A DNA stretch of 61,688 nucleotides from Candidatus Yanofskybacteria bacterium (GTDB lineage: Bacteria > Patescibacteriota > Minisyncoccia > 2-02-FULL-40-12 > IGHO2-12-FULL-4): NCBI GenBank assembly GCA_016185525.1, contig JACPNK010000003.1, positions 1 through 61,688 of the forward strand. Direction: 5' to 3'. Under the pieces are notes generated by a model, which made no database searches, had not been told where the DNA came from, and saw only the letters and a list, made by a program, of their open reading frames with translations. The position numbers and the translations under genes were made by a program. This document shows positions 2,483-60,179 of the stretch, in pieces. The first letter of the stretch is position 1. Every line of letters starts with the position of its first letter.

Positions 2483-2509
2483 TTGACCCTTTTTGACACT
2501 TTTTGATAC
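2483..2509 (+). promoter_or_regulatory. Phased triple TTGAY motif, copy 1 (TTGACCCTTTTTGACACTTTTTGATAC)
   Basis: Hexamers at 2483, 2493 and 2503, exactly 10 bp apart. Located in the divergent intergenic region between 1658..2422(-) and 2544(+). TATAAT at 2530-2535 lies 8 nt before the ATG at 2544. Confidence 0.6.
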
Positions 2510-2543: not shown

Positions 2544-3629
2544 ATGGATAACCTAAATAAAAATTTAAATGTAGCCATACTGATTTCAACAAAAGATCGG
2601 CCCGACTTTATGACCCGACAGCTTCTTTATTATTCAAAACTTAAATCACCTCATCCGGTTTATATCGCGGATTCAAGCAATGACAAAAATGCCGAAATCC
2701 TAAAAAATGCCGTCAACAAATTAAAAAATGAAATATCGATTAAATATACATGGTATCCGCCCGGACCCGATAATCATGGAAGCTTGTTGGAACAGGTAAA
2801 AGAAAAATATGCTTGTGTAATCAGTGATGACGATTATCAGATACCGGCCTCTCTGGTAAAATGCGCGGAATTTTTGGAAAATAATCCGGATTACGCCGCA
2901 GCGGGCGGACGCTCGGTAAGTTTCCGCCTAAAAGAAAGCGGGCCGTACGGAGAGTTACAAAGATTGGCCGACTATCCGAGATATTCGATTGAGGCGGAAA
3001 CGGCCCGTCAGAGATTGATTGATTTCATGAAAGTTATTTATTCCATATCATTCTTCGTAAATCGGGTAGATGGCATGAAAAAAGCTTGGAAAAGCAAGCT
3101 GTATATGGCCCAGACGATGAATGAACTCATTTCTTGGAATCACTTGATTATAGCCGGAAAATCAAAATTGATTGACTGTTTAAGTCTTGTCCGGCAAATT
3201 CATGCCCAACAATACTCAATGCCTAACATTTTTGATTGGGTAACCGGTAAAAACTTCTCTGATGATTATGAGTTCTTCAAGGATGATATCGCCAAAGCAG
3301 TAGCCGAAAAAGATAATATTGACGTCCAAGACGCCAAAGAAACCGCTAAAGAAATTTTTTGGCACTATGCGCAAAAAACACTGTCTTCGGATTATAAATA
3401 TTACATTGCCAAGCAATATCCTCCTAAAAAAATGTCGAACAAAAACCTAAGGGCTGAAATTGCGAAATCATTTCCGGTTCTTAAGAAAATATACAGGTCT
3501 TATGTAAGGCGGCTTCTGAGTAACGACCCGCAAATGCATTATGAAGTACTCCAGCCAAGTTCAAAATATTACAGAGACTTTAAGCCTGTTATGGATTCGT
3601 TCACCGGTTCTTCTCCAAAAAATCTTTAA
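2544..3629 (+). CDS. GT-A-like (GT2-like) putative glycosyltransferase, paralog 1 of 3
   Basis: N-terminus VAILISTKDRPDF...PVYIADSSND and an acidic DDD motif, as in GT-A folds. Clearly homologous to the two downstream minus-strand genes. Its 3' end overlaps the convergent paralog by 29 nt. Confidence 0.6.
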   Translation: MDNLNKNLNVAILISTKDRPDFMTRQLLYYSKLKSPHPVYIADSSNDKNAEILKNAVNKLKNEISIKYTWYPPGPDNHGSLLEQVKEKYACVISDDDYQIPASLVKCAEFLENNPDYAAAGGRSVSFRLKESGPYGELQRLADYPRYSIEAETARQRLIDFMKVIYSISFFVNRVDGMKKAWKSKLYMAQTMNELISWNHLIIAGKSKLIDCLSLVRQIHAQQYSMPNIFDWVTGKNFSDDYEFFKDDIAKAVAEKDNIDVQDAKETAKEIFWHYAQKTLSSDYKYYIAKQYPPKKMSNKNLRAEIAKSFPVLKKIYRSYVRRLLSNDPQMHYEVLQPSSKYYRDFKPVMDSFTGSSPKNL

Positions 3630-4656
3630 CAATTTTAAAATCATTAAAGTATTTTGATTCCGGCCGGTCAACGTAACTGGGAGGGTAAAATTTATAGTAG
3701 ATACTCTTTAAAAGCGGTTTGCTGGAAATAAAGTATCTTAGTTTTTTAAACAGATTCCGCCTGGCAGGCGCGGATTCTCCCTGGCCAACGGATAACCAGC
3801 CGGTTTCTAAAGTAAACTGGCGCGCAAGATAGAGAATAAATATCCATTTAACAATTTTTAAGCTTTCTTTTTCCGGCACGCCCTTTTCTTGTATAATTTC
3901 CGAGAATCCTTTTTCGCAAATGCTCCACTGTTCGCCAACGGATGGCGATAGCATAAAATCGACATAAAGAAAACTGGGATTGTGGTCAAGAGAGTATCTA
4001 AGGCCGCTTATTTGCATAACATACCCCAGCTTATCAAGCATCTTAGATTTTCCGGAAATTATAAGTATAGACGCCAATAAAAATTCCGTCATACGCCCGG
4101 CCAAAGAGAAATGCCTGGTAATATTGCGTATTGACCTTTCTGTCTCAACCCTTGTAACCGCAAAACTGATAAAAACCGGGTTGAACCAAAAACTTTTTAT
4201 TCGCGCAAGCATATCCTCATTTTCAATCGATCTGCTGGATGTGGATGTTTGCTGCTCAATTAAACCATAGGGCTTACTATAGTCTTCCTGCCGGAAACGG
4301 ATATTTACTTGCCTGCCGGCGCAAGTTCCGTAATCAGGATGTTCCTCCAAAAAGTCGGCGCATTCAGAGATTGTTTTTGGAATCATTATGTCGTCATCGC
4401 CCATTTGTATGCAGTATTTTTCTTTTACTAACGGCAATATCTGATACAGAGAATCTTTTCCCGGCGGAGCCCATTGGTAAGTAATTTCAAATTTTTTGAA
4501 CTTTTTAATTCCCTCTTTTAATTTTTCAGCGTTTTTTTCGTTACTGCTGTCTAATATGTATATCGGGTGTGGGCTGTTCATCAATTCATAAAACTCAAAT
4601 TGCCTTAAAAGAAAGTCAGGACGGTTCATTGTCGGAATTGTTATAGCAACCTTCAT
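3601..4656 (-). CDS. GT-A-like putative glycosyltransferase, paralog 2 of 3
   Basis: MKVAITIPTMNRPDF...IYILDSSNE and a GDDD motif. ATGA overlap with the upstream paralog at 4653-4656. GGAG lies 9 nt upstream of the ATG. Confidence 0.6.
   Translation of the reverse strand: MKVAITIPTMNRPDFLLRQFEFYELMNSPHPIYILDSSNEKNAEKLKEGIKKFKKFEITYQWAPPGKDSLYQILPLVKEKYCIQMGDDDIMIPKTISECADFLEEHPDYGTCAGRQVNIRFRQEDYSKPYGLIEQQTSTSSRSIENEDMLARIKSFWFNPVFISFAVTRVETERSIRNITRHFSLAGRMTEFLLASILIISGKSKMLDKLGYVMQISGLRYSLDHNPSFLYVDFMLSPSVGEQWSICEKGFSEIIQEKGVPEKESLKIVKWIFILYLARQFTLETGWLSVGQGESAPARRNLFKKLRYFISSKPLLKSIYYKFYPPSYVDRPESKYFNDFKIVKDFLEKNR
3613..3808. repeat. 196-nt near-identical segment shared by tandem paralogs (copy A)
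   Basis: Matches 4665..4860 with only 2 mismatches seen by eye. Covers the C-terminal ~60 codons of paralog 2. Confidence 0.85.
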
Positions 4657-5693
4657 AAGTAGGACTCCAAAAAATCTTTAACAATTTTAAAATCATTAAA
4701 GTATTTTGATTCCGGCCGGTCAACGTAACTGGGAGGGTAAAATTTATAGTAGATACTCTTTAAAAGCGGTTTGCTCGAAATAAAGTATCTTAGTTTTTTA
4801 AACAGATTCCGCCTGGCAGGCGCGGATTCTTCCTGGCCAACGGATAACCAGCCGGTTTCTGTAGAAAATCTATAAGGATAGACAAGATAAATAAGAAATA
4901 TCCATTTAATAATTTTTAAGCTTTCTTTTTCCGGCACACCCTTTTCCTGTATAATTTCCGAGAATCCTTTTTCGCAAATGCTCCATTTCTCGCTAATAAA
5001 ACTAAAATTAGCCGTAAGGCTGTGGTCAAAGGATCGAATGCCGCTTATTTGCATAACATACCCCAGTTTATCAAGCACCTTAGATTTTCCGGAAATTATC
5101 AATATGGACAATAGCAAAAATTCCAACATGTCCTCCAGAAGACCAAAATGTTTTGTAATGTTTCTTATTGTTTTTTCTGTTTCAGTCCTTCTGACTGCAA
5201 AGCAGATAAAAGTCGGGTCGGACCAGAAATTTTTTGCCCGCACAAGCATATTCCCATCTTCAACTGACCTGCCTAGCGGAAGCGTTTGCTGCTCAATCAA
5301 ACCGTAGGGTTTACTATAATCTTCCTGTCGGAAACGGATATCTACTTGTTTACCGGCGCAAGTTCCGTAATCAGGATGTTCTTCTAAAAAGTCGGCGCAT
5401 TCAGAGATTGTCTTTGGAATAACAATGTCATCGTCTCCTATCTGAACACAGTATTTTTCTTTTATTAAAGGCGTTAATTGATACAAACAATCTTTTCCCG
5501 GCGGAGCCCATTGATAAGTAGTCTCAAAGTTTTTGAACTTTTTAATTCCTTCTTTTAACTTTTCGGCGTTTTCTTCGTTACTGCTATCCAAGATATATAT
5601 GGAATGAGGACTACTCATAAACTCATAGAACTCAAACTGTCTCAATATAAAATCAGGGCGGTTCATTGTTGGAATTATTATAGCAACTTTCAT
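4653..5693 (-). CDS. GT-A-like putative glycosyltransferase, paralog 3 of 3
   Basis: MKVAIIIPTMNRPDF aligns with the paralog 2 N-terminus, so the ATG at 5693 is preferred. The ORF is open to 5777, but that extension would run into the regulatory motif at 5761-5787. Confidence 0.6.
   Translation of the reverse strand: MKVAIIIPTMNRPDFILRQFEFYEFMSSPHSIYILDSSNEENAEKLKEGIKKFKNFETTYQWAPPGKDCLYQLTPLIKEKYCVQIGDDDIVIPKTISECADFLEEHPDYGTCAGKQVDIRFRQEDYSKPYGLIEQQTLPLGRSVEDGNMLVRAKNFWSDPTFICFAVRRTETEKTIRNITKHFGLLEDMLEFLLLSILIISGKSKVLDKLGYVMQISGIRSFDHSLTANFSFISEKWSICEKGFSEIIQEKGVPEKESLKIIKWIFLIYLVYPYRFSTETGWLSVGQEESAPARRNLFKKLRYFISSKPLLKSIYYKFYPPSYVDRPESKYFNDFKIVKDFLESYL
4665..4860. repeat. 196-nt near-identical segment shared by tandem paralogs (copy B)
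   Basis: Counterpart of 3613..3808. The identity ends 5 codons before each stop codon. Confidence 0.85.
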
Positions 5694-5760
5694 ATAGGAT
5701 TCGTGGAAATTATTTGTTAAATAATATAATTTAGATGAAACAAAGTCCATAGCCGACTTA

Positions 5761-5787
5761 TTGACACCTTTTGACATCTTTTGATAC
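5761..5787 (+). promoter_or_regulatory. Phased triple TTGAY motif, copy 2 (TTGACACCTTTTGACATCTTTTGATAC)
   Basis: Hexamers at 5761, 5771 and 5781. Only 9 nt separate the motif from the GTG start at 5797. Located in a divergent intergenic region. Confidence 0.6.
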
Positions 5788-16309: not shown

Positions 16310-16355
16310 TTTGCTATAATAACAAAGATAAGTCGCAAAGCAAGATGTCTACCTG

Positions 16356-16382
16356 TTGACATCTTTTGACACCTTTTGATAC
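16356..16382 (+). promoter_or_regulatory. Phased triple TTGAY motif, copy 3 (TTGACATCTTTTGACACCTTTTGATAC)
   Basis: Hexamers at 16356, 16366 and 16376. The motif ends 15 nt before the ATG at 16398. Located in a divergent intergenic region. Confidence 0.6.
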
Positions 16383-19805: not shown

Positions 19806-19914
19806 AAGTCAATTTTTACTTTTTAATTTAAAATTTTTACTTAATTTGCAATAACTAATTTTAAAAAAATTAAAAATTCATTAAAAATTGAAAAGTGAAA
19901 ATTAAAAATTTTTT

Positions 19915-36310: not shown

Positions 36311-37369
36311 TTACCGAGAGTCATTGATTGTTGCGTAAATTTTACTGATAAGTTTGTCTAAGTCGTGATTTTCTAAAACATAGTCTCTAAATTCTCTTCT
36401 ACAGCCCGCGCCGCACAAATTTTTTATCTTGCCAGCAAGTTCTTCAGGGTCGTCTTCTTTAAAAACTGATTCGTCTTTCAAAAACTTTCGGGAAGAATCA
36501 TTGGAACTCAATACATTGCACCCGCAGGCCATTGCTTCAAGAATGGTCTTGTCCAAGCTTCCCGTTTTGCTTAAGTGCACAAAAATATCGTGAGACTGAT
36601 AGTATTTTGGCAACTCTTTGTGATTTATTTTTCCAATAAAACTAAAATTTTCCTCCAACTTCAAACTTTTAATTCTAAACTTTAAACTTGCCAAATAGCG
36701 GACATCGCTATCCAGCGCTGTTTCTCCGACCATAGTTACGGAAAAATTTACCCCGCCGTCTTTCAATATTTTAGCCGCATTGATCAGCGTCTCGTAATTT
36801 TTAACCGGCGAAACCCTTCCCACGCTCAATATCTTAATTCCACCGAGGTCGAACCTCGGTGTCCTTCTATCGAGGTTCGACCTCGAAAAATCTGGCTTAA
36901 ATAATTCTGTATCAATTCCGTGCCCCGTAACTATCACCTTTTTTGACGGCAAGCGAAAACTTTCTTTTGAAGCGGTAAAAATAGTATCGGCAAATTTTTC
37001 AGCCAACTTTAACTTGGCTGTCACTCCGCCGCTGGTATACCAAAAAAATATCTTCTTGCCTGTTAAGCGCCACCACCAGCCGCCCAAAACAACCCATATC
37101 GGGTTCATGTGGACAAAAACGGCATCATAATTATTTCTCAAGTTGAAAATTGAAAATTGAAAATTTAAAAATTGCCTTAGTTTTCCGGCGCCCTTGTCTT
37201 TGCCCAAACTTATAGCCCTTACGTTATCGGGTAACGCAAGGGAGCCTTCTTCCAGACACAAGACCGTAACTTTTTCAAACTTCTTCGAAAACAATCTTAT
37301 CCATTCAATAAAAAACCCGAGCAACTGGTCGTTTTCGTCAACTTTTTGTGTAATAATTAATAATTTCAA
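36311..37369 (-). CDS. Glycosyltransferase family 4
   Basis: ILEAMACGCNVLSS EX7E region. N-terminus MKLLIITQKVDENDQLLGFF. TTG start. Carries two in-frame repeat insertions (36842..36886 and 37144..37164). Confidence 0.8.
   Translation of the reverse strand: MKLLIITQKVDENDQLLGFFIEWIRLFSKKFEKVTVLCLEEGSLALPDNVRAISLGKDKGAGKLRQFLNFQFSIFNLRNNYDAVFVHMNPIWVVLGGWWWRLTGKKIFFWYTSGGVTAKLKLAEKFADTIFTASKESFRLPSKKVIVTGHGIDTELFKPDFSRSNLDRRTPRFDLGGIKILSVGRVSPVKNYETLINAAKILKDGGVNFSVTMVGETALDSDVRYLASLKFRIKSLKLEENFSFIGKINHKELPKYYQSHDIFVHLSKTGSLDKTILEAMACGCNVLSSNDSSRKFLKDESVFKEDDPEELAGKIKNLCGAGCRREFRDYVLENHDLDKLISKIYATINDSR
36842..36886. repeat. Twin palindromic hairpins inside the GT4 CDS
   Basis: ACCGAGGT-CGA-ACCTCGGT (36842-36860) and TCGAGGT-TCG-ACCTCGA (36870-36886). 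They encode NLDRRTPRFDLGG in the interdomain linker. Confidence 0.85.
37144..37164. repeat. (TGAAAAT)x3 heptanucleotide tract inside the GT4 CDS
   Basis: Three perfect units plus a degenerate fourth. Encodes NFQFSIFN on the minus strand. Confidence 0.9.
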
Positions 37370-48340: not shown

Positions 48341-50254
48341 TAGTTGGAGATTAGCGCCCTTAACGCTCTGCGGGTTATCTCACCGAAGAAACCGGAAATT
48401 GGTTTAACTGCGTATTTCTCCTGGAGTTTTTTGACCGCTTCACGGGTGATATTGCCGAAATAGCCGGTAAGAAGATTGGCTGGATAACTGACTTCGTTTA
48501 CCAAGAGAGCTTGGAGACGGACGACGTCGTTACCCCGAGAACCGAGGTAAAGATCTCTGGAAAAGTTGTCAAAACTTACACTGGAAGTAGTGGGAGTGGG
48601 GGTTGGTGTTGGCTCAACAAGATAGAAAGTGTAATCACTTGAGTAAAACACTTCTCCGGATTGGGTTGTAGCCTTGGCCCTGACATGATAAGTGGTATTA
48701 AAATTTAAATACTGACCCAAATAAGTTTCACCAATATAATAACCGCCATCGGCTGGGTAATTCCCTTTTGCTGCTTCGGATGACCCCCAATTATTCCAAC
48801 CGGAGGTACCGCCATAACTCGTTGTAGTGCCGTACTCGTAAATCACTATTACCTGCTTATTTGAGTGATAGGCCACCCAAACTCGTTTTTGACTAGGCTG
48901 TAAGTCAATAGATAAGGTTATAGTTCCAACGACTGTCGGAGTTGGTGTCGGGGTCGGCGTTGGGGTGGGAGTAGCAGAACCCGCCGCAGTCACATTAAGA
49001 GAAAGCACAATGCTGTTGTAAGGCCATGAACCGCGCTCTTGCGCCCCGGTTGAAGTCACTCTGACAATCGTGTTGTTGTAAGTTTTAATTTGTTGTTGTA
49101 AGTTTTAATTTGACTGTTTGCTGTTGTTGGCGAACAGGTTACTGTAACTGTCTGGGGACTGGCTGGATTAATTAAAACTGAACTTGGCGAAACGGTGCAA
49201 AAAGAAAGAGGCGTGCTTATATCAAGCACTTCAACTTTAAGCAAATCATTGCCAGCCCAGTTGCCCGAAACAGCATTGCCATCATAAGTAGTGCTTATGC
49301 GCATGCTTGTTGAGGCATTGGAATTTTGAGGAATCGTCAAAGAAGAAGGCGTAACCGAGAGAAAATAACCGCCATAATATGCATATGTTGATGTTGATGT
49401 TGATGTGGGTGTCGGTGTTGGGGTCGGGTCGTCGGAGTGGGGGTCGGCGAAAAAGATAGAGATGAGGTTGGCGATGGTGTAACCGTAAATGACGGCGATG
49501 AAGTCGGTGACGGGGAAATAGTTACTAATGGAGTAGCGGTAGGAATCATCGGCGTCGGAGTCGGAGCAAAACATGACCCAACCGTATCTCCATGATCCAA
49601 ATGGGCTTTTAAGGCCGAGGCGTTGACACTGATAGTCTGAAACGCGCCAGCACTATTGGAAGGATGATGACAGATAACCGCTTGGCCGATATCTTTAAAC
49701 TCTGCTTTGGATTCCAGCTTTTTTTCAGTTGAAACTCTTTTCAGTTCTTTTATCCTTTCATATTTGGGTACTTCTTTGACGGTATTCAAGGCCGTTTGGC
49801 TTTTAGGATACCAGTTGAACTCTTTGCGGTTGATACAAAAAACTTTCTTGAAAAAATTGGGGTCGTCTTGGACAGCCTGGTCGCCTGAAGTATTGATCCA
49901 CTTCAGTTGGCCGGAATCTTCGCCTTCTACATCAACTCCGTATACTTTTTCGTCATTATCTTCGCAATTCCGGAAAAGACCCGAAGTGGGAAAGGAATCT
50001 ACCACTTCTTGAGTAACCAATTTAACACTGAAAAACCCTCCCAAATGAGTGTAGAACTTGAATATCTCAGGGTTGAGGAATAATCTCTTGTAGCCTTGTT
50101 CGTTGATGATATAGACATCGGGGTCATCGGAGAAGATGGCGGAGATGAGGTCGCCTTCTTTAAGACCATAGTCGGAGGGGGAGGTAGCTGAAACTGTGGA
50201 AAAATTAAAAAAGATTACCAAAAAAAGCCCAAGGAAAAACCAAGATTTATTCAT
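48340..50254 (-). pseudogene. Disrupted paralog of the wall-associated protein gene (three ORF fragments)
   Basis: ORFs 49337..50254, 49056..49574 and 48340..49059 form one gene. Deleting one copy of the 20-bp duplication (49071-49110) rejoins IKTYNN to TIVRVTSTGAQERGSW. A 1-nt shift near 49426-49428 rejoins the PT linker. Confidence 0.65.
49071..49110. repeat. Perfect 20-bp tandem duplication (TGTTGTTGTAAGTTTTAATT x2)
   Basis: 49071-49090 equals 49091-49110 exactly. The length is not a multiple of 3, so the duplication shifts the frame. Confidence 0.95.
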
Positions 50255-50320
50255 ATGCTTTTATTCTACTCTCTCTACAGACGAAAAAAAATGAGTTATC
50301 AACAAACAAGGTTAGGTTTT

Positions 50321-51919
50321 TTATTTGAAATCATACACAAAGAATGACTGCCCGATTTTGTCAACCGGCTCATACAACGCCAGCCAATTAAGGGCCGGGT
50401 CTTTTTTTTGCTCGCTCAATAACTGCATGCGAATCAGCAAAAAAGTGTTAACGGCAAACCGGCCTTTCGGTTCCCGCCACCAGCCGGATTCGTCGGCTTG
50501 CTTAAAGTTGCTCATACTCACCCGATAATATTCCGGACTTGAATGGCTCCATGAGTAAATAACTTTAGTTTCCGGGTTTTTTGCCTGATACTTGCCAAGC
50601 CGTTTTAAGTCCTGGCCCCATTCAATATTCGAGTCATCAAGATATTTGTAGCCGTTCTTGGAACCGCCGATAAATTCGTTGAAATAAGGCATGTAGTCGG
50701 GGTAGATGCTGAAAGCGGAATAAGCATACCAAACAGCCAAAACCAAAATTAAGATTGTTTTAAAATTAACAATTGAAAATTTATTGAAAATTGAAAATTG
50801 AAAATTGAAAATTTTTGATAAATAGCCGCCGGCGTAAAGAATTAAAAATGGAATTGCCGGAATAAGATATCTAATGCTTATATTTTGAGCCTTTGCGCTT
50901 GTCACAAAAGCGAAGAAAAGCATTGGTAAAAATACAAGCGCCTTGCTCCAACTGTCCATTTTTATTTTTTTGTAAAGTAAAATAGAAGCCGCAAACGCAA
51001 CTAATGCCGGAATAGGCGTTTTTATCAGAAACGCTTCCAAAAAGTAATACCACCAGCCGTCCGGCGAAAATTTGCCGTTCAAATAAAGATTAAAATCCGG
51101 CTTCCAGTTGGCGTAAACGCTTTTGAAACCTCTTAAATAAAACCCGGAGTCGGCCGGCATAAGATAGGAAAAATATATGACGGCAACAGCGGGAATAGCC
51201 ATGATCAGAGAAAGGTTTGCCAACCGGCGCATCTTCACATTAAGCTCACCGCCGCGTTGCCATGCATAAGTCAAAATAAATAAGGCAACCACGGGTAAAA
51301 AGATAGTGGCGGAGAATTTTGAACTTAAAGCCATGCCAAGAAACAATCCGGAGTAAGCCAAGTGTTTTTTTAGTCCGGCTGTAACAAACTTCCATAAATA
51401 ATAAAAAGTAATGAATGAAAAGGATGCCAGCGGAAGGTCCATCGTAACAAATTGAGCGTTGGTAATAATCACGGGCATAAATGCGTACAGGAACAGAGCC
51501 AAAAGGCCGGCTTTGCGGCTAAACATTTCTGACCCCCATTTGTAGATATAAAAACCAAGCAAAACCGACAAGAGCATCATCGGCAACCGTCCCCAAAGCA
51601 GTAACCGGTCGGCGTCGTTAGAAAATAAAAATTTACTCCCAAAGGTCCACTGTTTTTTAAAAGGACCGGCTAGGTTGACATCATCGGCGTCAAATTTCAA
51701 ATCCATGAAAAGCAGAGGAAACGAGGCCATTAATTTTACCAGCGGAGGATGTTCGGGATTCAATACTATCTCGCCTGTTTTCCAATAAGAATAACCGCCC
51801 GGCAAGTGAATTATTTCGTCGGTTGCCGGACTAAAATTTTGCGCGCTGAAAAACGGAATAAAAAACACTAACAACAACAGAACTGTGAGTATGCTTTTAT
51901 AATGCGAAACCGAAAACAT
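50321..51919 (-). CDS. GT39/PMT-like (ArnT-like) GT-C membrane glycosyltransferase
   Basis: First-loop TDEIIHLPGGYSY and NPEHPPLVKL motifs typical of PMT_2-type enzymes. About 12 TM helices. Carries the (TGAAAAT)n insertion. Confidence 0.75.
   Translation of the reverse strand: MFSVSHYKSILTVLLLLVFFIPFFSAQNFSPATDEIIHLPGGYSYWKTGEIVLNPEHPPLVKLMASFPLLFMDLKFDADDVNLAGPFKKQWTFGSKFLFSNDADRLLLWGRLPMMLLSVLLGFYIYKWGSEMFSRKAGLLALFLYAFMPVIITNAQFVTMDLPLASFSFITFYYLWKFVTAGLKKHLAYSGLFLGMALSSKFSATIFLPVVALFILTYAWQRGGELNVKMRRLANLSLIMAIPAVAVIYFSYLMPADSGFYLRGFKSVYANWKPDFNLYLNGKFSPDGWWYYFLEAFLIKTPIPALVAFAASILLYKKIKMDSWSKALVFLPMLFFAFVTSAKAQNISIRYLIPAIPFLILYAGGYLSKIFNFQFSIFNKFSIVNFKTILILVLAVWYAYSAFSIYPDYMPYFNEFIGGSKNGYKYLDDSNIEWGQDLKRLGKYQAKNPETKVIYSWSHSSPEYYRVSMSNFKQADESGWWREPKGRFAVNTFLLIRMQLLSEQKKDPALNWLALYEPVDKIGQSFFVYDFK
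50774..50812. repeat. (TGAAAAT) heptanucleotide tract, 1 + 4 copies, inside the GT39 CDS
   Basis: One unit at 50774-50780 and four perfect tandem units at 50785-50812. Encodes NFQFSIFNKFSIVNF. Confidence 0.9.
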
Positions 51920-51989
51920 GCTGATATCTTATATCAAACATAAAAGACCCGCAAATGGGTCTTTTGTGTTTGAATTTTTAAATTTTAAG

Positions 51990-53216
51990 TTATTTAACCA
52001 GCTGTAGATAATCACCATGCACCCAAGCATCTTTGCTCTGGTATTTAATCTTATGCCACAAACCTGACTGACTTAAACTTTCTATAATGCTCCCTGCCGG
52101 CAACTTGCCCAAAAGCGCGCTTGAAGTGGCGGCTAATGCCCTCACATTAAGCTGGTCTGTGTCAAAAACTTTATACTTCTTCAATGCGGAGACCGGAGCA
52201 GGAGTTGAAGATACGACATTTTTTCTTGAGTAATCCGGTATTTGATTTACGGAAGTGTAGTCAGAACCTTTCGGATACCAGTTAAATTCATTGGTGTTGA
52301 TACAGAAGACTTTTTTGAAGAAATTGGGATCGTCAGCAACAGCTTGCTCACCGGAGGTATTTACCCAGTGAAGTTTGCCGGTATCTTCGCCTGTCGTTTC
52401 CACGCCGTAGACTTTTTTGTCATTGGTCTCGCAGTTTCTGAAAAGACCGGAAGTTACAAAGACATCTCTGGTTACAGATGTGGTGCCCTTCACTTTAGAA
52501 AATCCTCCAAGATGACCGTAAAATCCGAATATGGCGGGGTTTAAAAATAATCTTTTATAACCGTGTGGATTAACTATGTAAACATCGGGGTCGCTTGAAC
52601 CGGCAGCACTAATAACGTCACCGTCTTTCAAACTTACATTGGCTAAGCTGACAAACCCTCGCGAGGCCGGTGTTGCTTGTCCCGAGCTTGTCGAGGGGGC
52701 CGGGGTTGGAGTTGCTTGCGGTGAGCTTGTCGAAACCGGTGTGGGAGTTGGTGTTTTCGCAGGCGTGGTTGTCCCACCGCCACCACTGCTAGGAGGACTA
52801 GTGGTGGTAGTGGTGGCAGAAGAACCAGCAATGGAACCGGTGCTTTCGCAAGAAGTTGACCTGGGAGTAACTATGATAGTTTTGGTAGCGTCAGCGTTAA
52901 TAGTAAGCCGTGACGCAGTAGCTCCACAAACAAAGCCGTAACCGCTGTCGTTGTCCAGATATAATTTACTTGCCGATGAAAGAACTATTTTTTGGCCGGA
53001 AATAACGCTTATAGTAATTGTGGTATTCGTAGTTGTTACCTCGTTTACTATGGAATTGGCTTCTATGGTAATATCACCGACACCCAAGTTTACAGTGGTG
53101 TCTTCAGAAAAAGTAACGGTTGTCGCTTTTGCTTCGTTGATTCCGACCAATAACAGTCCCGCCGCTAAAATGGTAACGAGTAAGGAGAGAAAGAAATTAG
53201 TCTTTAATAATTTCAT
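51990..53216 (-). CDS. Secreted protein: N-terminal beta-rich region, PT linker, shared surface domain, C-terminal SH3b domain
   Basis: Signal peptide, TPAKTPTPTPVSTSSPQATPTPAPS linker, the shared domain (DGDVISAAGSSDPDVYIVNPHGYKRLFLNPAIFGFY) and a C-terminal LNVRALAATSS...GLWHKIKY...AWVHGDYL SH3_3-like motif. Confidence 0.7.
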   Translation of the reverse strand: MKLLKTNFFLSLLVTILAAGLLLVGINEAKATTVTFSEDTTVNLGVGDITIEANSIVNEVTTTNTTITISVISGQKIVLSSASKLYLDNDSGYGFVCGATASRLTINADATKTIIVTPRSTSCESTGSIAGSSATTTTTSPPSSGGGGTTTPAKTPTPTPVSTSSPQATPTPAPSTSSGQATPASRGFVSLANVSLKDGDVISAAGSSDPDVYIVNPHGYKRLFLNPAIFGFYGHLGGFSKVKGTTSVTRDVFVTSGLFRNCETNDKKVYGVETTGEDTGKLHWVNTSGEQAVADDPNFFKKVFCINTNEFNWYPKGSDYTSVNQIPDYSRKNVVSSTPAPVSALKKYKVFDTDQLNVRALAATSSALLGKLPAGSIIESLSQSGLWHKIKYQSKDAWVHGDYLQLVK

Positions 53217-56572: not shown

Positions 56573-58405
56573 TTATTCGACGGTTAACTGTTGAATAAGC
56601 TGTTGTATCAACCTTCCTGTCTCAAGATCAACACTGGAATATTTCAACCCTTCTTTTAAATCGGCAATCGCTTTTTCTTTGTTATTTAAAGCGAGGTAAA
56701 CAAGCGCGGAGTTGTAATAGACACGAGGATTGCCAGGAAGAAGCATTTTTAATTTTTCCATATTCGCCGCCGCTTGAACTAAATCGCCCTGTTGGGCGTA
56801 GATAACCGCCAAATCTTGATATGGATAGAAAAAGCTAGGGTCAATTTCTATGGCCTTGTTAAACTCGGCAATCGCGCCCTTAATATCGCCTCGCGACCGT
56901 AGTATGCTTCCGATGTTAAAATGTGGCTGGGCAAAAATATCACCGGCTTCAACCGCTTTTCTGTAATAAACTTCGGCTTGTTCTTTATCGCCCTGGTTGA
57001 AATACTGATTGCCCAGATTGTTATTTATTCTGGCATTGTCCGGTTCATATTCTAAAATATTTTTGTAAAACTCAACCGGTTTGCCCCAAACAATATTGCG
57101 CTGAATGGATTGGTAGGCAAAAAAGGAGAAATAGGCAATGAGACCAATGACAAATGACAAATGACAAATGACAAATTTTTTACTTCTAAAATACTCAAAA
57201 AGTTTGACCAGATAGAAAGAAACTATCAGCCAGAAACCGACCATCGGCAGATAAAGCCAGTGTTCGTACATTAAAGCGTTAATCGGCGTAATTCCGGAGA
57301 CTGGAGCAAGGGCAACGAAGAACCAAAGCGCTCCCAAAAGCCAAATCCTGACATCGGATGCCGGAACGACATCCGATGTCCTTAAATTCTTATAAAACCT
57401 GTATGCCAAACGCCAAACGCCAAACGCCAACAACAATGCTATCAGCCACACCGGCCATTGAAATAACGAAGTGTATATCTTAACGCTTCGCTCCATGTGA
57501 AGCCCGACGGGAGCAACAAGGAGTTTTAAGTATTCCCAAAGTATCGGCAGAAAGGTAAAGATCCTAACATGCAAATTTTCAGAATAAACATTTTGCTGGG
57601 AATAAAAATTAAGCGTGTTCTGAAAATTTAAAACCGTGAGCCGTAAAATACCGTAAACGATAACCACCGCAAAATACGGCCATGTTTTTAAAAGTCCTTG
57701 TTTTAATGATTTTATTAAGGTCCGACCAACTGTTGGACGTTGAACGTCCCACAGTTGGATATAGAAAAAAACGAGAGCCAGAAATGGGAAAACTATAGCC
57801 GTTTCACGGCTTAAAAGGCTTAAAACCAAAGAGCCTATAATTAGTAGACGGTAACCAAAAGACGACGTTTTGACATCGGATGTCCGCTGGACATCCGATG
57901 TCGTTAATTCTGACTTGCAGAAAAACAATAAACCTAAGAGCATAAACATCGCCGCCAAAGCATCCCCCCTTCCGGAAATGTATGTTATCGCTTCGGTTTG
58001 CAGAGGGTGGATTAAGAAAAACAAAGCAGTCAAAAAAGCAAACGGGTCTTTTTTGAAAGCCCGCCTTATAAGCCAAAAAACGAGAACAGAGTTAAATATA
58101 TGTATCGCATTGCTGGTCAAGTGGTAAAGCAACGGTTTCACTCCGGATATAATATAGTTGAGAGTAAATGTAAAAAACAGGAACGGCCGGTAGTAGTTGC
58201 TCTTCAGCCCTATCCCCGCCAGAACGTCGTGAGTAAACCAAAATTTGACATTATCCCAGCTCACCGAATGAACAAAACTATTATTGATTATCCAGTCGTC
58301 GTCGTCCCAAAATAACCCGTTGTTTATGTTGAACGAGTACACAAAACCGCCGGCAATAATCAGAGCAATCACCGCAAGTCCTGTTTTATTTTTCAGTAAA
58401 TTCAT
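56573..58405 (-). CDS. TMTC-like GT-C membrane glycosyltransferase with C-terminal TPR repeats (paralog)
   Basis: LFWDDDDWIINN, YYRPFLFFTFTLNY, HIFNSVLVFWLI and HPLQTEAITYISGRGDALA, followed by a TPR block. Contains four in-frame repeat elements. Confidence 0.7.
   Translation of the reverse strand: MNLLKNKTGLAVIALIIAGGFVYSFNINNGLFWDDDDWIINNSFVHSVSWDNVKFWFTHDVLAGIGLKSNYYRPFLFFTFTLNYIISGVKPLLYHLTSNAIHIFNSVLVFWLIRRAFKKDPFAFLTALFFLIHPLQTEAITYISGRGDALAAMFMLLGLLFFCKSELTTSDVQRTSDVKTSSFGYRLLIIGSLVLSLLSRETAIVFPFLALVFFYIQLWDVQRPTVGRTLIKSLKQGLLKTWPYFAVVIVYGILRLTVLNFQNTLNFYSQQNVYSENLHVRIFTFLPILWEYLKLLVAPVGLHMERSVKIYTSLFQWPVWLIALLLAFGVWRLAYRFYKNLRTSDVVPASDVRIWLLGALWFFVALAPVSGITPINALMYEHWLYLPMVGFWLIVSFYLVKLFEYFRSKKFVICHLSFVIGLIAYFSFFAYQSIQRNIVWGKPVEFYKNILEYEPDNARINNNLGNQYFNQGDKEQAEVYYRKAVEAGDIFAQPHFNIGSILRSRGDIKGAIAEFNKAIEIDPSFFYPYQDLAVIYAQQGDLVQAAANMEKLKMLLPGNPRVYYNSALVYLALNNKEKAIADLKEGLKYSSVDLETGRLIQQLIQQLTVE
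57146..57176. repeat. (AATGACA)x4 heptanucleotide tract in CDS
   Basis: Four perfect units at 57146-57173 plus a partial unit. Encodes FVICHLSFVIG within a TM segment. Confidence 0.9.
57350..57380. repeat. GACATC-palindrome element, variant copy
   Basis: GACATCGGATG-CCGGAAC-GACATCCGATGTC. Encodes RTSDVVPASDV in frame. Confidence 0.85.
57405..57431. repeat. (GCCAAAC)x3 heptanucleotide tract in CDS
   Basis: Three perfect units at 57405-57425 plus GCCAAC. Encodes part of LLLAFGVWRLAY. Confidence 0.9.
57871..57909. repeat. GACATC-palindrome element, copy 1 (39-nt identity with copy 2)
   Basis: TGACATCGGATGTCC-GCT-GGACATCCGATGTCGTTAATT, a 14-bp stem with a 3-nt loop (57872-57902). Each arm is itself a GACATC-N-GATGTC palindrome. 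Encodes TTSDVQRTSDV. Confidence 0.9.
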
Positions 58406-60089
58406 ATTTGTATTTGGAAAAAATTGGTTTGTTTTTTGGAATATTTTTAACTAAAATAATAGCACTATTATTGATAAATACCACCTTCCAATCAGAATCC
58501 CGAACTATATTTTTTAAGAACGCCTGCCCCCACGGCGTAGCGTCGGTGTGTCCGAAAAAGACAAAGTTAATGCCGTATTTTTCTGAAAGCTCTTTCCATT
58601 TCTCTTTACTTTCCTGCATCGGTTTATAAATTTCGCTGAAAAACTTAACCGAGTAGGCTTCCGGTCTATTATCCACGAAAACCCTAAAGGGGTCAGGTAC
58701 CTTTTCGGCAGGGTACCTGACCCCTTCAATCTGCCATATCAAATAACCGCCGATGTCAAAATTATTGAACATCGGCCCCTCAATTTTATTTTCCTTAACA
58801 AAGTTAACGGCTTTTTCCAGTTCGCCGGGAACTGAAAAACCAAAAGCCTTGGCAGACCTTATCGCTTTGTAATACCCGCCGCCGGAAACCCAAAAAATCA
58901 TAAAAATGAGAAACCCGGCAACTGCTATCTTGAACACACCGCTTAAATATCTCCTGACATCGGATGTCCGCTGGACATCCGATGTCGTTAATTTAAAAAC
59001 ATCACCCAACAGCATCGTCAAGACCGGAAAAGAAACCAAAGCATATAGAGGCAGATTGCGAAGCATCTTAAAACCGGCATAAATTGAAAAGGCTAAAATT
59101 AAAATTTCAAAAATTCTTTGTCTCGTTTTTCTAAAAGTTGTGACCAGCAAAATTGCCGCCACTGCCACGGAAAGTTTGAAAACAAAAATTGTCAGTTTAA
59201 AGCCGAAGAAATTTGACAGAAAAGCGAGCGTCTGATTTTCAACAATGCTATAGCCGTACTCTTTTAAAATTGTAAAGGGAGCTAAAGCGCCTTGAAGACC
59301 GTTGGGGTTGGCTAGAGTAGCAACAAAAACTAGAGATAAGATAAGGACAACTTTTTTAAGCGATAAATCTACAAACGGGAGAATATGTCTCTTTCTTGCG
59401 CCGGACTCTTCGCCGTCGAACTGCGAAAGAGACATATTCTCCCGTTTGTTTTTACGATTTATCGCTTGATCAATTAAAAAACTCAACACCAAAAACGGTC
59501 CGATGAAAAAATAAATATGTAAATTTACCCAAAATAGCTCGGCTAAGGGCAAAAACCACAACAGATTTGAGGTTCGATCTCCGTATTTCTCATTCGAGGA
59601 GGTCCGACCTCCGTATTTCTCTCTGAACAAAACAAACAAAAAGAAAGCTAAAATGGCAAAACTGAAAATTTCGGGTCTGACTTCGGTGCGCTCAATAAAT
59701 ATAAAAATTGAAAGCAAAAAAGAAATTGCGATCGGCCAAAAGGTGGCATATTTTTTGACGGTAAAAAAAAGCAGTAAAAAAGCGGCCAAAACAAAAAAGA
59801 CTTTAAGCAAAATTAAGCCGGTAAAACCAAACCAGCCGTAAATTCCGTAAAATATGACCTCGCTTAACCAATGATGGTTTGCGAACGGAAAATCCGGTTC
59901 GGTAAAAGAAAAAAAATTTACCCTCGGCACTTCCTTTGTCTGCCAGATAACTTCCCCCAACTTTAAGTGCCGCCCGATGTCCTGCCCGATGGAGTCAAAG
60001 CTGTGAATCAGAAAAACAGCCAGAAGGCTAAATAATAATACAAAAACACAAAGCTCTAATTTATTCCTGTTTAGATTTGAGAAACCCAC
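58386..60089 (-). CDS. Polytopic membrane protein, unclassified (possible GT-C-like)
   Basis: At least 12 hydrophobic helices and a soluble C-terminal domain. GTG start. Overlaps the downstream paralog gene by 20 nt. Carries three in-frame repeat insertions. Confidence 0.6.
   Translation of the reverse strand: MGFSNLNRNKLELCVFVLLFSLLAVFLIHSFDSIGQDIGRHLKLGEVIWQTKEVPRVNFFSFTEPDFPFANHHWLSEVIFYGIYGWFGFTGLILLKVFFVLAAFLLLFFTVKKYATFWPIAISFLLSIFIFIERTEVRPEIFSFAILAFFLFVLFREKYGGRTSSNEKYGDRTSNLLWFLPLAELFWVNLHIYFFIGPFLVLSFLIDQAINRKNKRENMSLSQFDGEESGARKRHILPFVDLSLKKVVLILSLVFVATLANPNGLQGALAPFTILKEYGYSIVENQTLAFLSNFFGFKLTIFVFKLSVAVAAILLVTTFRKTRQRIFEILILAFSIYAGFKMLRNLPLYALVSFPVLTMLLGDVFKLTTSDVQRTSDVRRYLSGVFKIAVAGFLIFMIFWVSGGGYYKAIRSAKAFGFSVPGELEKAVNFVKENKIEGPMFNNFDIGGYLIWQIEGVRYPAEKVPDPFRVFVDNRPEAYSVKFFSEIYKPMQESKEKWKELSEKYGINFVFFGHTDATPWGQAFLKNIVRDSDWKVVFINNSAIILVKNIPKNKPIFSKYKYEFTEK
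58955..58993. repeat. GACATC-palindrome element, copy 2
   Basis: The 39-mer is identical to 57871-57909. It encodes KLTTSDVQRTSDVRR in a different protein. Confidence 0.9.
59358..59467. repeat. 110-bp imperfect inverted-repeat element inside a CDS (MITE/RPE-like)
   Basis: Perfect 23-bp arms at 59373-59395 / 59425-59447. Outer 12-bp arms AAGCGATAAATC (59358-59369) / GATTTATCGCTT (59456-59467). 29-nt loop. Read through in frame. Confidence 0.85.
59569..59628. repeat. 30-nt tandem direct repeat with GAGGTyCGAyCTC palindromic cores
   Basis: GAGGTTCGATCTCCGTATTTCTC (from 59569) and GAGGTCCGACCTCCGTATTTCTC (from 59599). Encodes EKYGGRTSSN / EKYGDRTSNL. Confidence 0.85.
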
Positions 60090-60106
60090 TCAGCAAGAAA
60101 TGGCTA

Positions 60107-60174
60107 CATTGTTATATTGTTACATTGTTAGCAATATAGTCATTCAACAGTGTAACAATTTAGCAATGTAACAA
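60107..60174. repeat. Intergenic octamer repeats (CATTGTTA-TATTGTTA-CATTGTTA) with downstream inverted copies
   Basis: Three 8-mers at 60107-60130. TTGTTACATTG (60117-60127) pairs with CAATGTAACAA (60164-60174). The nested ATTGTTA/TAACAAT pair gives alternative stems. Confidence 0.8.
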
Positions 60175-60179
60175 CTTAC

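What the first reader, a model, noticed from the sequence alone, without database searches (positions are those of the whole stretch)
57350..58993. Short nested-palindrome element (GACATC-N-GATGTC x2) inserted in frame in two adjacent membrane-protein genes, encoding TSDV repeats
The 39-mer TGACATCGGATGTCCGCTGGACATCCGATGTCGTTAATT is identical at 57871-57909 (in 56573..58405) and 58955-58993 (in 58386..60089). A variant, GACATCGGATG-CCGGAAC-GACATCCGATGTC, is at 57350-57380. Each element is a 14-bp-stem hairpin whose arms are themselves palindromes, so it reads almost the same on both strands. All copies are translated in frame as (T)TSDVQRTSDV or TSDVVPASDV in predicted loops between TM helices. 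Two different proteins share the identical 39 nt, which implies recent spread of a DNA element rather than protein homology. This is analogous to Rickettsia palindromic elements or REP-like sequences that insert into ORFs, but much smaller. Alternatively the hairpins may act at the RNA level, or the TSDV peptides may be modification sites.
Basis: seen in the sequence. Interest (0 to 1): 0.7.

Follow-up and report, generated by a model that had tools for sequence, protein, structure and literature searches.

The report
Tiny hairpin repeat translated inside genes
Three copies of a roughly 37-base hairpin-forming repeat sit in frame inside two neighbouring membrane-enzyme genes of a Candidatus Yanofskybacteria (CPR) genome; they belong to a dispersed, REP/RPE-like family that also occurs between genes and inside other genes, so this is a small new variant of a known kind of selfish DNA.

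Summary
An identical 39-mer lies at 57871-57909 and 58955-58993, with a variant at 57349-57387. Each folds into a 14-bp stem with a 3-nt loop and is read in frame as TSDV..TSDV in loops of two GT-C-type membrane proteins.

It is one member of a dispersed family. In 816 kb of related Yanofskybacteria DNA I found 47 distinct copies at 15 or more sites, in several genes and in intergenic DNA. The element is polar: a conserved ATTAAC tag precedes the 31-nt hairpin on one side only. An orthologue lacking the insert shows a clean 33-nt in-frame insertion.

Stem pairing is kept by compensatory changes (13 of 14 pairs) while the peptide changes (TSDV, TLNV/TFNV, TPGV, TSQV). The constraint is therefore on the nucleic acid, not the peptide. 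Both window sites are old, because they are occupied in orthologues at 60-67% identity. The 39-nt identity thus reflects within-genome homogenisation, not a fresh insertion.

Four other hairpin families colonise the same loops. The same hairpin core sits in frame in LeuRS, LigA and Ddl of other phyla.

The closest known kinds are intragenic REPs and Rickettsia RPEs. It lacks their GTAG/CGTC tag, and no RAYT was found. How it is mobilised remains unresolved.

The parts
57871..57909 (-). Element copy 1. The tag ATTAAC (minus strand; 57903-57908 reads GTTAAT on +) is followed by the 31-nt hairpin core at 57872-57902. It is translated as LTTSDVQRTSDVK, residues about 167-179 of the 610-aa protein.
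   Evidence: Exact 39-mer. Folds at -25.5 kcal/mol, z -6.4. Clean 33-nt insert relative to orthologue P0032. The orthologous site is occupied in P0005/7/8/10/11.
58955..58993 (-). Element copy 2, identical in its 39 nt to copy 1. It is translated as LTTSDVQRTSDVR, residues about 367-379 of the 567-aa protein.
   Evidence: The orthologue alignment shows the loop is short in many relatives and carries TSDV, TSNV or TLNV variants in others.
57349..57387 (-). Element copy 3, a variant: tag TTTAAG, core GACATCGGATGTCGTTCCGGCATCCGATGTC in the sense strand. It is translated as LRTSDVVPASDVR, residues about 341-353 of the 610-aa protein.
   Evidence: 82% identical to the 39-mer. 14-bp stem including one G.U pair in the sense RNA. 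This loop is hypervariable among 120 orthologues.
56573..58405 (-). Host gene 1: a 610-aa membrane protein with C-terminal TPR repeats (TMTC/PMT-like, GT-C type). It carries copies 1 and 3 and a further hairpin at 57726-57758.
   Evidence: ORF; Pfam TPR families; relatives carry PMT/PMT_2 hits; hydropathy.
58386..60089 (-). Host gene 2: a 567-aa membrane protein with no Pfam match and a GT-C fold. It carries copy 2 and three other hairpin inserts.
   Evidence: ORF; no Pfam match; AlphaFold pTM 0.83; Foldseek matches to DPY19, STT3/AglB/PglB and AftA.
58687..58726 (-). Another in-frame hairpin element (family D): AAGGGGTCAGGTACC-N10-GGTACCTGACCCCTT, translated as EGVRYPAEKVPDPFR.
   Evidence: 15-bp perfect stem; -31.9 kcal/mol. 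It is a 10-aa insert absent from the closest relatives P0122-P0126 but present in relatives at 63-64% identity. pLDDT is below 50.
59371..59449 (-). Another in-frame hairpin element, with a 25-bp perfect stem and a 29-nt loop, translated as NKRENMSLSQFDGEESGARKRHILPF.
   Evidence: -48.6 kcal/mol, z -10.2. It is an insert relative to orthologues whose loop region is about 20 aa in the alignment. pLDDT is below 50 at residues 232-240.
59569..59621 (-). Remnant related to family B: a 30-nt direct repeat containing GGAGGTCGGACCTCC and GGAGATCGAACCTC, translated as EKYGGRTSSNEKYGDRTSN.
   Evidence: (D17). It is an insert relative to orthologues whose aligned loop stretch is 25 aa. Other lineages carry family B or TSDV-type elements at this same loop.
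57726..57758 (-). Imperfect in-frame hairpin, CCAACTGTTGGACGTT / AACGTCCCACAGTTGG, translated as LWDVQRPTVGRT.
   Evidence: I20; -21.7 kcal/mol, z -4.5. This loop is variable among orthologues.
36844..36885 (-). Family B nested-palindrome element, CGAGGTCGAACCTCG-N12-CGAGGTTCGACCTCG, in frame in a GT1-like gene (36311..37369), translated as SRSNLDRRTPRFDLG.
   Evidence: Related loci hold 39 distinct family B copies.

Best explanation
The three TSDV-coding sequences are copies of a very small, polar, REP-like hairpin repeat. The unit is a 6-nt tag, ATTAAC, followed by a 31-nt perfect hairpin (14-bp stem, 3-nt loop) and usually an A.

The family is dispersed through Candidatus Yanofskybacteria genomes, in intergenic DNA and in frame inside genes. 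Intragenic copies persist where a short hydrophilic insertion is harmless, such as loops between transmembrane helices and surface loops of enzymes.

The sequence suits life inside genes. The core has no stop codon in any frame. Because each arm is itself a palindrome, it encodes the same TSDV peptide in either orientation. With the consensus flanks, TSDV is the only frame open in both orientations.

The hairpin is the feature under constraint. It stays paired through compensatory changes while the peptide drifts.

The two identical copies in the window occupy two old insertion sites. They have been kept or made identical within this genome, by gene conversion or re-copying.

Shown: dispersal, polarity, in-frame insertion against an empty orthologous site, covariation of the stem, and within-genome similarity.

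Inferred: the copying mechanism. I consider hairpin-dependent copying of single-stranded DNA most likely. This could be a trans-acting transposase of the REP/RAYT or IS200/IS605 type (about 0.4). It could instead be transposase-free template switching or gene conversion at the replication fork, guided by microhomology to the A/T-rich tag (about 0.3). Intrastrand template switching, that is quasi-palindrome correction, would keep the stems perfect.
For: - Dispersal: 47 distinct copies were collected without any pairing criterion in 816 kb of related DNA. They lie at 3 sites in the 567-aa family and 4 in the 610-aa family. They also lie in a 218-aa ORF family in the opposite orientation, in PMT-like and GSDH-like genes, and at 8 intergenic places.
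- Polarity: the ATTAAC tag is conserved at 36-44 of 47 copies per position, on one side only, including intergenic copies.
- Insertion: the empty site in P0032 against the filled window site gives a 33-nt in-frame insertion with no evident target duplication.
- Stem covariation: 92.9% of cells are paired and 13 of 14 pairs show double-sided changes. There are 49 compensated cells against 7.1 in shuffles, with 0 of 500 shuffles reaching the observed value.
- Peptide drift: variants TLNV/TFNV, TPGV and TSQV keep 14 of 14 pairs.
- Within-genome similarity: loops are shared within contigs at p about 0.0004.
- Reading frames.
- Template-switch signatures: the closest relative, L123, has a different perfect 19-bp hairpin at the same site. 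It is 13/21 identical in the arm, and its palindrome extends into the flank. L123 also has a single-arm copy at the other site.
- Ongoing turnover: there is a 39-nt hairpin indel between CPR contigs about 90% identical.
- Generality: four further hairpin families occupy the same loops. The window holds 19 perfect hairpins with stems of 10 bp or more, against 2.5 in shuffles.
- Location: inserts fall in low-confidence loops of the model.
Against: - No mobilising enzyme was identified. No Y1/RAYT-like ORF was found in the window or in the 816 kb of CPR DNA. The single RAYT found, in the Bacteroidota MAG, is flanked by unrelated GTAG REPs.
- The canonical GTAG/CGTC tag is absent.
- Copy density is low: 3 copies in 61.7 kb.
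- Only one clean empty/filled pair exists for this family, and its boundaries are ambiguous by 1 nt.
- Conservation of perfect stems at orthologous sites across 35-40% protein divergence could also mean the host selects for the structure.
- The covariation statistics are inflated to an unknown degree by relatedness among the copies.
Confidence: 0.75

Rival explanations
1. The hairpin is a host-selected structured element. As mRNA it would pause ribosomes after a transmembrane helix or protect the transcript. As DNA it would be a protein-binding site. On this view it is kept because it helps express these membrane proteins.
For: Strong stem covariation with freely varying loops. Perfect stems persist at orthologous sites in proteins only 60-67% identical. 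Copies sit just after or between hydrophobic helices. The window variant keeps 14 pairs through a G.U pair in the sense strand.
Against: The same tagged unit occurs in intergenic DNA and in the opposite orientation to the gene. Many orthologues lack it, and presence is patchy. Copies in the 218-aa ORF family are decaying, with 8-13 pairs. Among imperfect pairs in the sense strand, A.C is at least as common as G.U. No Rfam family matches. The same core lies in cytoplasmic enzymes such as LeuRS, LigA and Ddl.
Confidence: 0.12
2. The element arose locally, and only locally, by duplication, slippage or fold-back (template-switch) synthesis in unconstrained loops. It then moved only between the paralogous neighbouring genes by gene conversion. 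On this view there is no genuinely mobile element.
For: The arms are also 18-nt-period direct repeats. Single-arm forms exist (L123, P0094). Partial tag duplications are seen in L126 and L142. The palindrome extends into the flank in L123. Family D arms resemble the native YPD(H/P) codons of empty orthologues. The 39-nt indel is built partly from flank.
Against: The same 37-nt unit, including the asymmetric tag, is found at 15 or more non-homologous sites, among them unrelated genes and intergenic DNA. The central bases of the two arms are complementary rather than identical in 132 of 140 hits, which points to an inverted rather than a direct repeat.
Confidence: 0.08
3. The TSDV..TSDV peptide is the functional unit, for example a phosphorylation or glycosylation site or a binding motif, and the palindromic DNA is incidental.
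For: The motif is Ser/Thr-rich and lies in loops of glycosyltransferase-like proteins. The TSDV frame predominates in long ORFs.
Against: The peptide changes (TSNV/TFDV, TLNV/TFNV, TPGV, TSQV, TSDG) while pairing is kept. Other frames are used elsewhere: HRMS in LigA, DIGC in other ORFs. Intergenic copies exist. The predominance of the TSDV frame is explained by stop codons in the tag and flank in the other frames.
Confidence: 0.03

Closest known systems
Intragenic REP elements (GTAG- and CGTC-tagged palindromic repeats; Di Nocera et al. 2013, PMC3733652) and REP/REPIN-RAYT systems
   Same: Both are 20-40-nt stem-loop repeats, polar, with a short conserved tag at one end. They are dispersed, and some copies lie entirely inside ORFs and are translated. 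The paper lists intragenic REPs in tRNA synthetase, DNA ligase and repair genes, the same host-gene classes seen here for the GACATC hairpin.
   Different: The tag here is ATTAAC, not GTAG or CGTC. The stems are perfect, without bulges. In the Yanofskybacteria sample most copies are intragenic. Copy density is low. No cognate RAYT was found in the DNA sampled. The arms are themselves palindromes.
Rickettsia palindromic elements (RPE; Ogata et al. 2000, as summarised in PMC3733652)
   Same: Both are selfish palindromic repeats inserted in frame into genes that remain functional, in a reduced genome of a host-dependent bacterium.
   Different: RPE-1 elements are roughly 100-150 bp (my recollection), carry a CGTC tag and are specific to Rickettsia. 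The present unit is 37-39 nt, and its core recurs in several phyla.
Quasi-palindrome template-switch mutagenesis (Ripley; Lovett laboratory work in E. coli; from my own knowledge)
   Same: It would explain stems that stay perfect through paired changes, extension of the palindrome into the flank in L123, and hairpin indels built from flanking sequence.
   Different: It is a mutational mechanism, not an element family. On its own it does not explain dispersal of one tagged unit to many sites.
[quoted passage not shown] 2010, PMC2996958)
   Same: Both are coding repeats whose DNA has dyad symmetry. Both are associated with membrane proteins and have a punctate cross-phylum distribution.
   Different: PARCELs are 25-residue tandem protein-domain repeats in dedicated ORFs. 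They are not single 11-13-residue inserts in housekeeping and glycosyltransferase genes.
Cyanobacterial small dispersed repeats (Elhai et al. 2008) and mitochondrial GC-cluster / double-hairpin elements (from my own knowledge, not checked here)
   Same: Both are very small (about 20-50 nt) palindromic mobile repeats that nest within one another, sometimes land in coding sequence, and have no identified transposase.
   Different: They occur in different lineages and have different sequences. No relationship was tested.

Membership tests
REP / REPIN (RAYT-mobilised) | Short (20-40 nt) repeat that folds into a stable stem-loop | tested here: met
   31-nt core with a 14-bp stem and 3-nt loop, -25.5 kcal/mol, z about -6 to -7.
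REP / REPIN (RAYT-mobilised) | Conserved GTAG (or CGTC) tetranucleotide at one end | tested here: not met
   The conserved flank is ATTAAC. In other phyla, GTAG- or TTAG-like flanks occur at about the chance rate: 4/15 Chloroflexota, 7/33 CPR, 14/51 in MS-B_bin-24.
REP / REPIN (RAYT-mobilised) | Cognate Y1 (RAYT) transposase gene flanked by the repeats | tested here: inconclusive
Only about 2% of each genome was sampled. The RAYT in the Bacteroidota MAG is flanked by GTAG REPs, not by this hairpin.
REP / REPIN (RAYT-mobilised) | Many dispersed copies per genome, mostly extragenic | tested here: inconclusive
   There are 3 copies in 61.7 kb, all intragenic. Among the 47 related copies, 8 are intergenic. 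In the Bacteroidota MAG MS-B_bin-24, 51 copies were seen and most lie only in short ORFs, that is, appear intergenic. No whole genome was available.
Rickettsia palindromic elements (RPE) | In-frame insertion into ORFs that remain open | tested here: met
Rickettsia palindromic elements (RPE) | About 100-150-bp unit, CGTC-tagged, Rickettsia lineage | tested here: not met
   The unit is 37-39 nt with an ATTAAC tag, and the organism is Candidatus Yanofskybacteria.
MITE | Terminal inverted repeats flanked by a target-site duplication; 50-800 bp | tested here: not met
   The 33-nt insert shows no duplication at the one clean empty/filled pair. The flanks are asymmetric. The unit is shorter than the prokaryotic MITE range of 50-800 bp given in PMC11602168.
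Intrinsic terminator | GC-rich hairpin followed by a T-run, at gene ends | tested here: not met
   The copies lie inside ORFs, and in the sense strand the hairpin is followed by AAAAC or AGGAG.
Functional peptide repeat (protein-level motif) | Peptide conserved irrespective of DNA symmetry | tested here: not met
   The peptide varies while pairing is kept. Other reading frames and intergenic copies exist.
CRISPR / TIGR-type arrays | Regularly spaced repeats with unique spacers in non-coding arrays | tested here: not met
   There are three copies, 522 and 1084 nt apart, inside ORFs.

The most novel reading that the evidence does not exclude
CPR bacteria, and some Chloroflexota and Bacteroidota, may host a class of transposase-free, self-perfecting hairpin elements. 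These would copy themselves by template switching at the replication fork. They would be built to be translated harmlessly in either orientation. They would continually remodel protein loops, including loops of essential enzymes such as LeuRS, LigA and Ddl. The same GACATCSGATGTC hairpin core would be shared across phyla by horizontal spread.
Probability: 0.2. Interest if true: 0.75.

Novelty: new variant of a known kind. Interest (0 to 1): 0.55.

Why it matters
It extends the phenomenon of selfish palindromic DNA inside genes, known from Rickettsia RPEs and intragenic REPs, to the Candidate Phyla Radiation. The unit is only about 37 nt and appears designed to be translated in either orientation.

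Many variable loops in CPR membrane glycosyltransferases turn out to be hairpin inserts rather than ordinary protein divergence. This matters for annotation, alignment and structure prediction of CPR proteins.

The clear stem covariation inside coding sequence gives a clean system for asking what keeps REP-like hairpins intact: mobility, repair bias or host function.

The same hairpin core also occurs in cultured Neolewinella and Lewinella strains, including one in-frame copy in an acyl-CoA oxidase-like gene. That makes experiments possible.

Tried and rejected
- A full-text literature search for the arm sequence (DNA and RNA spellings) found nothing. Keyword searches found only general REP, RPE, MITE and PARCEL papers. 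The Minerva preprint and the conserved-MITE paper contain nothing on this.
- Rfam: no family at gathering score in the window, and only sub-threshold microRNA-like chance hits on other hairpins.
- tRNA/tmRNA: none in the window.
- Viral contigs: only 1 hit, so there is no sign of a phage vector.
- A transposon whose ends are the hairpins: in the copy-rich Bacteroidota MAG, the genes between hairpin copies are ordinary.
- GTAG tag: it looked promising in a few Chloroflexota and Saccharibacteria copies, but it is at about chance frequency overall.
- RAYT or IS200-type transposase near the copies: none in the CPR DNA.
- RNA-level selection, tested through G.U against A.C asymmetry: no G.U excess.
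- Conservation of the nested (intra-arm) palindrome: only weak covariation, at 6 of 12 pairs, with 72 of 500 shuffles reaching that number. The long hairpin, not the nesting, is therefore the constrained feature.
- Cross-phylum homology: the Kribbella and Streptomyces hits are operator-like palindromes in intergenic DNA, in Streptomyces just upstream of what reads as a GntR-type regulator gene. They are unrelated to the CPR element.
- Recent insertion polymorphism of the TSDV family between near-identical contigs: none found. Only a different hairpin family showed a 39-nt indel.

Full report
**Observation**

The sequence is as described. The 39-mer TGACATCGGATGTCCGCTGGACATCCGATGTCGTTAATT occurs exactly at 57871-57909 and 58955-58993, with none expected in shuffles. 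The 13-mer GACATCSGATGTC, allowing one mismatch, occurs six times, all within the three elements, against 0.02 expected. The third copy, at 57349-57387, is 82% identical.

All three copies lie in two overlapping minus-strand ORFs, 56573..58405 (610 aa) and 58386..60089 (567 aa). They are read as LTTSDVQRTSDV(K/R) and LRTSDVVPASDVR. Each folds into a 14-bp stem with a 3-nt loop, at about -25 kcal/mol and z -5.9 to -7.1.

**Organism and host genes**

The best homologues are from Candidatus Yanofskybacteria (Patescibacteria/CPR), and the closest is 79-80% identical.
- The 610-aa protein is a TMTC/PMT-like membrane protein with TPR repeats.
- The 567-aa protein has no Pfam hit. Its AlphaFold model (pTM 0.83) matches GT-C glycosyltransferases such as DPY19, STT3/AglB/PglB and AftA.
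- Hydropathy puts the TSDV peptides in short K/R-rich loops between hydrophobic segments.

**The copies are insertions**

In an alignment of 120 orthologues of the 610-aa protein, both TSDV positions are hypervariable loops.
- At the first site, P0032 reads GAA TTA AAA ATA.
- The window reads GAA TTA [ACG ACA TCG GAT GTC CAG CGG ACA TCC GAT GTC] AAA ACG.
- This is a clean 33-nt in-frame insert, boundary ambiguous by 1 nt, with no evident target duplication.

In the 567-aa family, all four hairpin regions of the window protein are insertions relative to orthologues with short loops. These regions are the TSDV element, 58687-58726, 59371-59449 and 59569-59621. Three of them coincide with stretches of pLDDT below 50 in the model. 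The TSDV stretch sits at a helix-helix turn.

**A dispersed, polar element**

I fetched 80 metagenome loci encoding orthologues; together with three earlier loci and the window they total 816 kb. I collected every 31-mer within 8 of 28 mismatches of the consensus, using no pairing criterion. This gave 47 distinct copies.

They occupy:
- about 3 sites in the 567-aa family and 4 in the 610-aa family and its paralogues;
- one site in a roughly 218-aa ORF family, where the element lies in the opposite orientation and reads WxTSDVxxPSDVVN;
- sites in PMT-like and GSDH-like genes;
- 8 intergenic places.

A 6-nt flank, ATTAAC, is conserved on one side only, at 36-44 of 47 copies per position, and this includes the intergenic copies. 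The unit is therefore ATTAAC plus the 31-nt hairpin, usually followed by A. That is the identical 39-mer of the window.

Empty orthologous sites already contain AATTA or AAATT. So either the target is A/T-rich and resembles the tag, or microhomology to the tag guides the insertion.

**What is constrained**

On alignment A2 the 14-pair hairpin is 92.9% paired. Thirteen of the 14 pairs show changes on both sides. There are 49 compensated cells against 7.1 in shuffles, with 0 of 500 shuffles reaching the observed value, and slid controls collapse.

Variants such as the following keep 14 of 14 pairs while the peptide becomes TLNV/TFNV, TPGV or TSQV:
- GACATTGAATGTCC/GGACATTCAATGTC
- GACACCCGGTGTCC/GGACACCGGGTGTC
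- GACTTCGCAAGTCC/GGACTTGCGAAGTC
- GACATCAGATGTCC/GGACATCTGATGTC

The intra-arm (nested) palindrome covaries only weakly. Imperfect pairs show no G.U excess over A.C in the sense strand. The constraint therefore acts on the long hairpin as nucleic acid. It is not on the peptide and not clearly on the mRNA.

Relatedness among copies inflates these statistics to an unknown degree.

**Why TSDV**

The core has no stop codon in any of its six frames. With the tag and the consensus 3' A, TSDV is the only frame open in both orientations. TAA in the tag and TGA at the other end block the remaining frames. Because the arms are palindromes, both orientations give TSDV..TSDV.

**Age and identity of the window copies**

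Both window sites are occupied in orthologues that are only 60-67% identical, so the insertions are old.

Loops differ between genomes but are shared within them. The window has AGC twice, and L127 has GCG in five of seven copies. Within contigs, 12 of 52 pairs share a loop, against 3.5 expected (p about 0.0004). The 39-nt identity is therefore best read as within-genome homogenisation or re-copying.

The closest relative, L123, is instructive.
- At the first site it has a different but perfect 19-bp hairpin, CTTACGTTACCCGATGACG-tta-CGTCATCGGGTAACGTAAG. Its arm is 13/21 identical to the window's, and its palindrome now includes the tag region.
- At the other site it has a single arm next to a family B element.

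These features are what intrastrand template switching (quasi-palindrome correction) would produce. So are the partial tag duplications in L126 and L142, and so is a 39-nt hairpin indel between contigs about 90% identical. The mechanism itself is known to me from the literature and was not tested here.

**A general habit of these genomes**

The window has 19 perfect hairpins with stems of 10 bp or more, against 2.5 in shuffles. In the related loci, 126 of 195 perfect hairpins lie in ORFs of 150 aa or more.

Besides the TSDV family there are four further families:
- B: AAGGTTCGACCTT-N10/11-AAGGTCGAACCTT, with 39 distinct copies, both loop orientations and several frames.
- C: contains two inverted DnaA-box 9-mers.
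- D: GGGGTCAGGTACC..GGTACCTGACCCC.
- E: GAGGTTTAACCTC..GAGGTTAAACCTC.

**Beyond the lineage**

- Of 140 matches, 91 are 31 nt long, 80 of those are perfect 14-bp stems, and 132 have complementary centre bases.
- The matches include many CPR lineages, Chloroflexota and Bacteroidota. One MAG, MS-B_bin-24, has at least 51 copies, most outside long ORFs.
- In-frame copies lie in LeuRS (Anaerolineae, another Chloroflexota MAG, and Saccharibacteria, at the same loop) and in LigA. Others lie in Ddl, a class Ib aminoacyl-tRNA synthetase, a Mur ligase, RecG, and an acyl-CoA oxidase-like gene of the cultured Neolewinella marina.
- The Kribbella and Streptomyces hits are operator-like intergenic palindromes (in Streptomyces upstream of what reads as a regulator gene) and are unrelated.

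I cannot tell whether the cross-phylum similarity reflects horizontal spread or convergence. The ATTAAC tag is specific to the Yanofskybacteria lineage.

**Mechanism of spread**

This is unresolved.
- No Y1/RAYT-like gene occurs in the sampled CPR DNA.
- The only RAYT found, in the Bacteroidota MAG, is flanked by classical GTAG REPs and itself carries in-frame REPs.
- GTAG-like tags next to the hairpin are at chance frequency.
- Viral contigs hold a single copy.

**Comparison with known kinds**

Intragenic REPs and RPEs are established (PMC3733652), and they occur in the same host-gene classes, tRNA synthetases and DNA ligase. This element works like them. It fails the defining GTAG/CGTC tag, has no RAYT shown, is smaller, has perfect stems and nested arms, and in this lineage is mostly intragenic. 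I therefore file it as a new variant of a known kind.

Noticed in passing
window 2488-2509, 5756-5787, 16351-16382: Direct 10-nt-period repeats, ACCTTTTGACATCTTTTGATAC and variants, sit in three divergent intergenic regions. They may be a shared operator or promoter motif (family D11).
   Followed up: no
window 19881-19911, 37143-37173, 50759-50814, 59084-59114: A/T-rich TTGAAAATTGAAAATTGAAAAT-type repeats, mostly in intergenic DNA (the copy at 59084-59114 lies inside ORF 58386..60089) (family D9).
   Followed up: no
window 3587-5583: Two tandem paralogous genes (3601..4656 and 4653..5777) share blocks of 85-93% nucleotide identity (families D2, D4, D8, D10).
   Followed up: no
window 46695-52800: Repeated gene modules and low-complexity GTNGG-type (Gly/Val- or Pro/Thr-coding) repeats in a run of minus-strand ORFs (families D1, D3, D5-D7).
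   Followed up: no
window 60098-60177: A 32-nt imperfect inverted repeat rich in TTGTTACATTGTT lies in the 90-nt gap just upstream of ORF 58386..60089 (I2).
   Followed up: no
L127 10098-10136, L131 8305-8351 and 10074-10112, L177 8296-8336 and others: A hairpin family, CCTGTGGATAATCGACTT-gcg-AAGTCGATTATCCACAGG, carries two inverted perfect DnaA-box 9-mers (TTATCCACA). It is inserted in frame (LWIIDLRSRLSTG) at 11 or more places in related Yanofskybacteria genes. None is in the window.
   Followed up: partly
L021 3897-4637 (-) and flanks 4653-4680, 4853-4880: A RAYT-like Y1 transposase in the Bacteroidota MAG MS-B_bin-24 is flanked by GTAG REPs (GTAGGGGCGAC..GTCGCCCCTAC). Its own ORF carries in-frame REP copies.
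   Followed up: partly
L180 about 434-472 versus L170 / L171: A 39-nt in-frame hairpin insertion (containing CCTTAGCCAAGC-taa-GCTTGGCTAAGG) is present in one CPR contig and absent from two contigs about 90% identical. This is a recent hairpin gain or loss of another family.
   Followed up: partly
L078 195-250; Kribbella loci L027, L028, L046, L047, L086, L091, L108: Tandem or paired ACATCSGATGT palindromes lie in intergenic DNA. In Streptomyces they are upstream of what reads as a GntR-type regulator gene. In Kribbella they are conserved at one orthologous position. They look like operators.
   Followed up: partly
L043 5525-5555, L102 7075-7105, L110 2215-2245: The hairpin sits at the same loop of leucyl-tRNA synthetase, just before the TTRPDT motif at the entry to the editing domain, in two Chloroflexota and one Saccharibacteria genome. 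The Anaerolineae (L043) and Saccharibacteria (L110) enzymes are only 42-55% identical.
   Followed up: partly
L064, L067, L089, L093 (assembly DYHP01): A MAG labelled Candidatus Methylomirabilis sp. DR5_44_9 carries five copies on four contigs, most of them in frame in long ORFs (Peptidase_S11, PyrK-like, Ddl). The '44' in the isolate name, if it is the GC percentage, would be unusually low for that genus (my recollection). The bin may be mislabelled.
   Followed up: no
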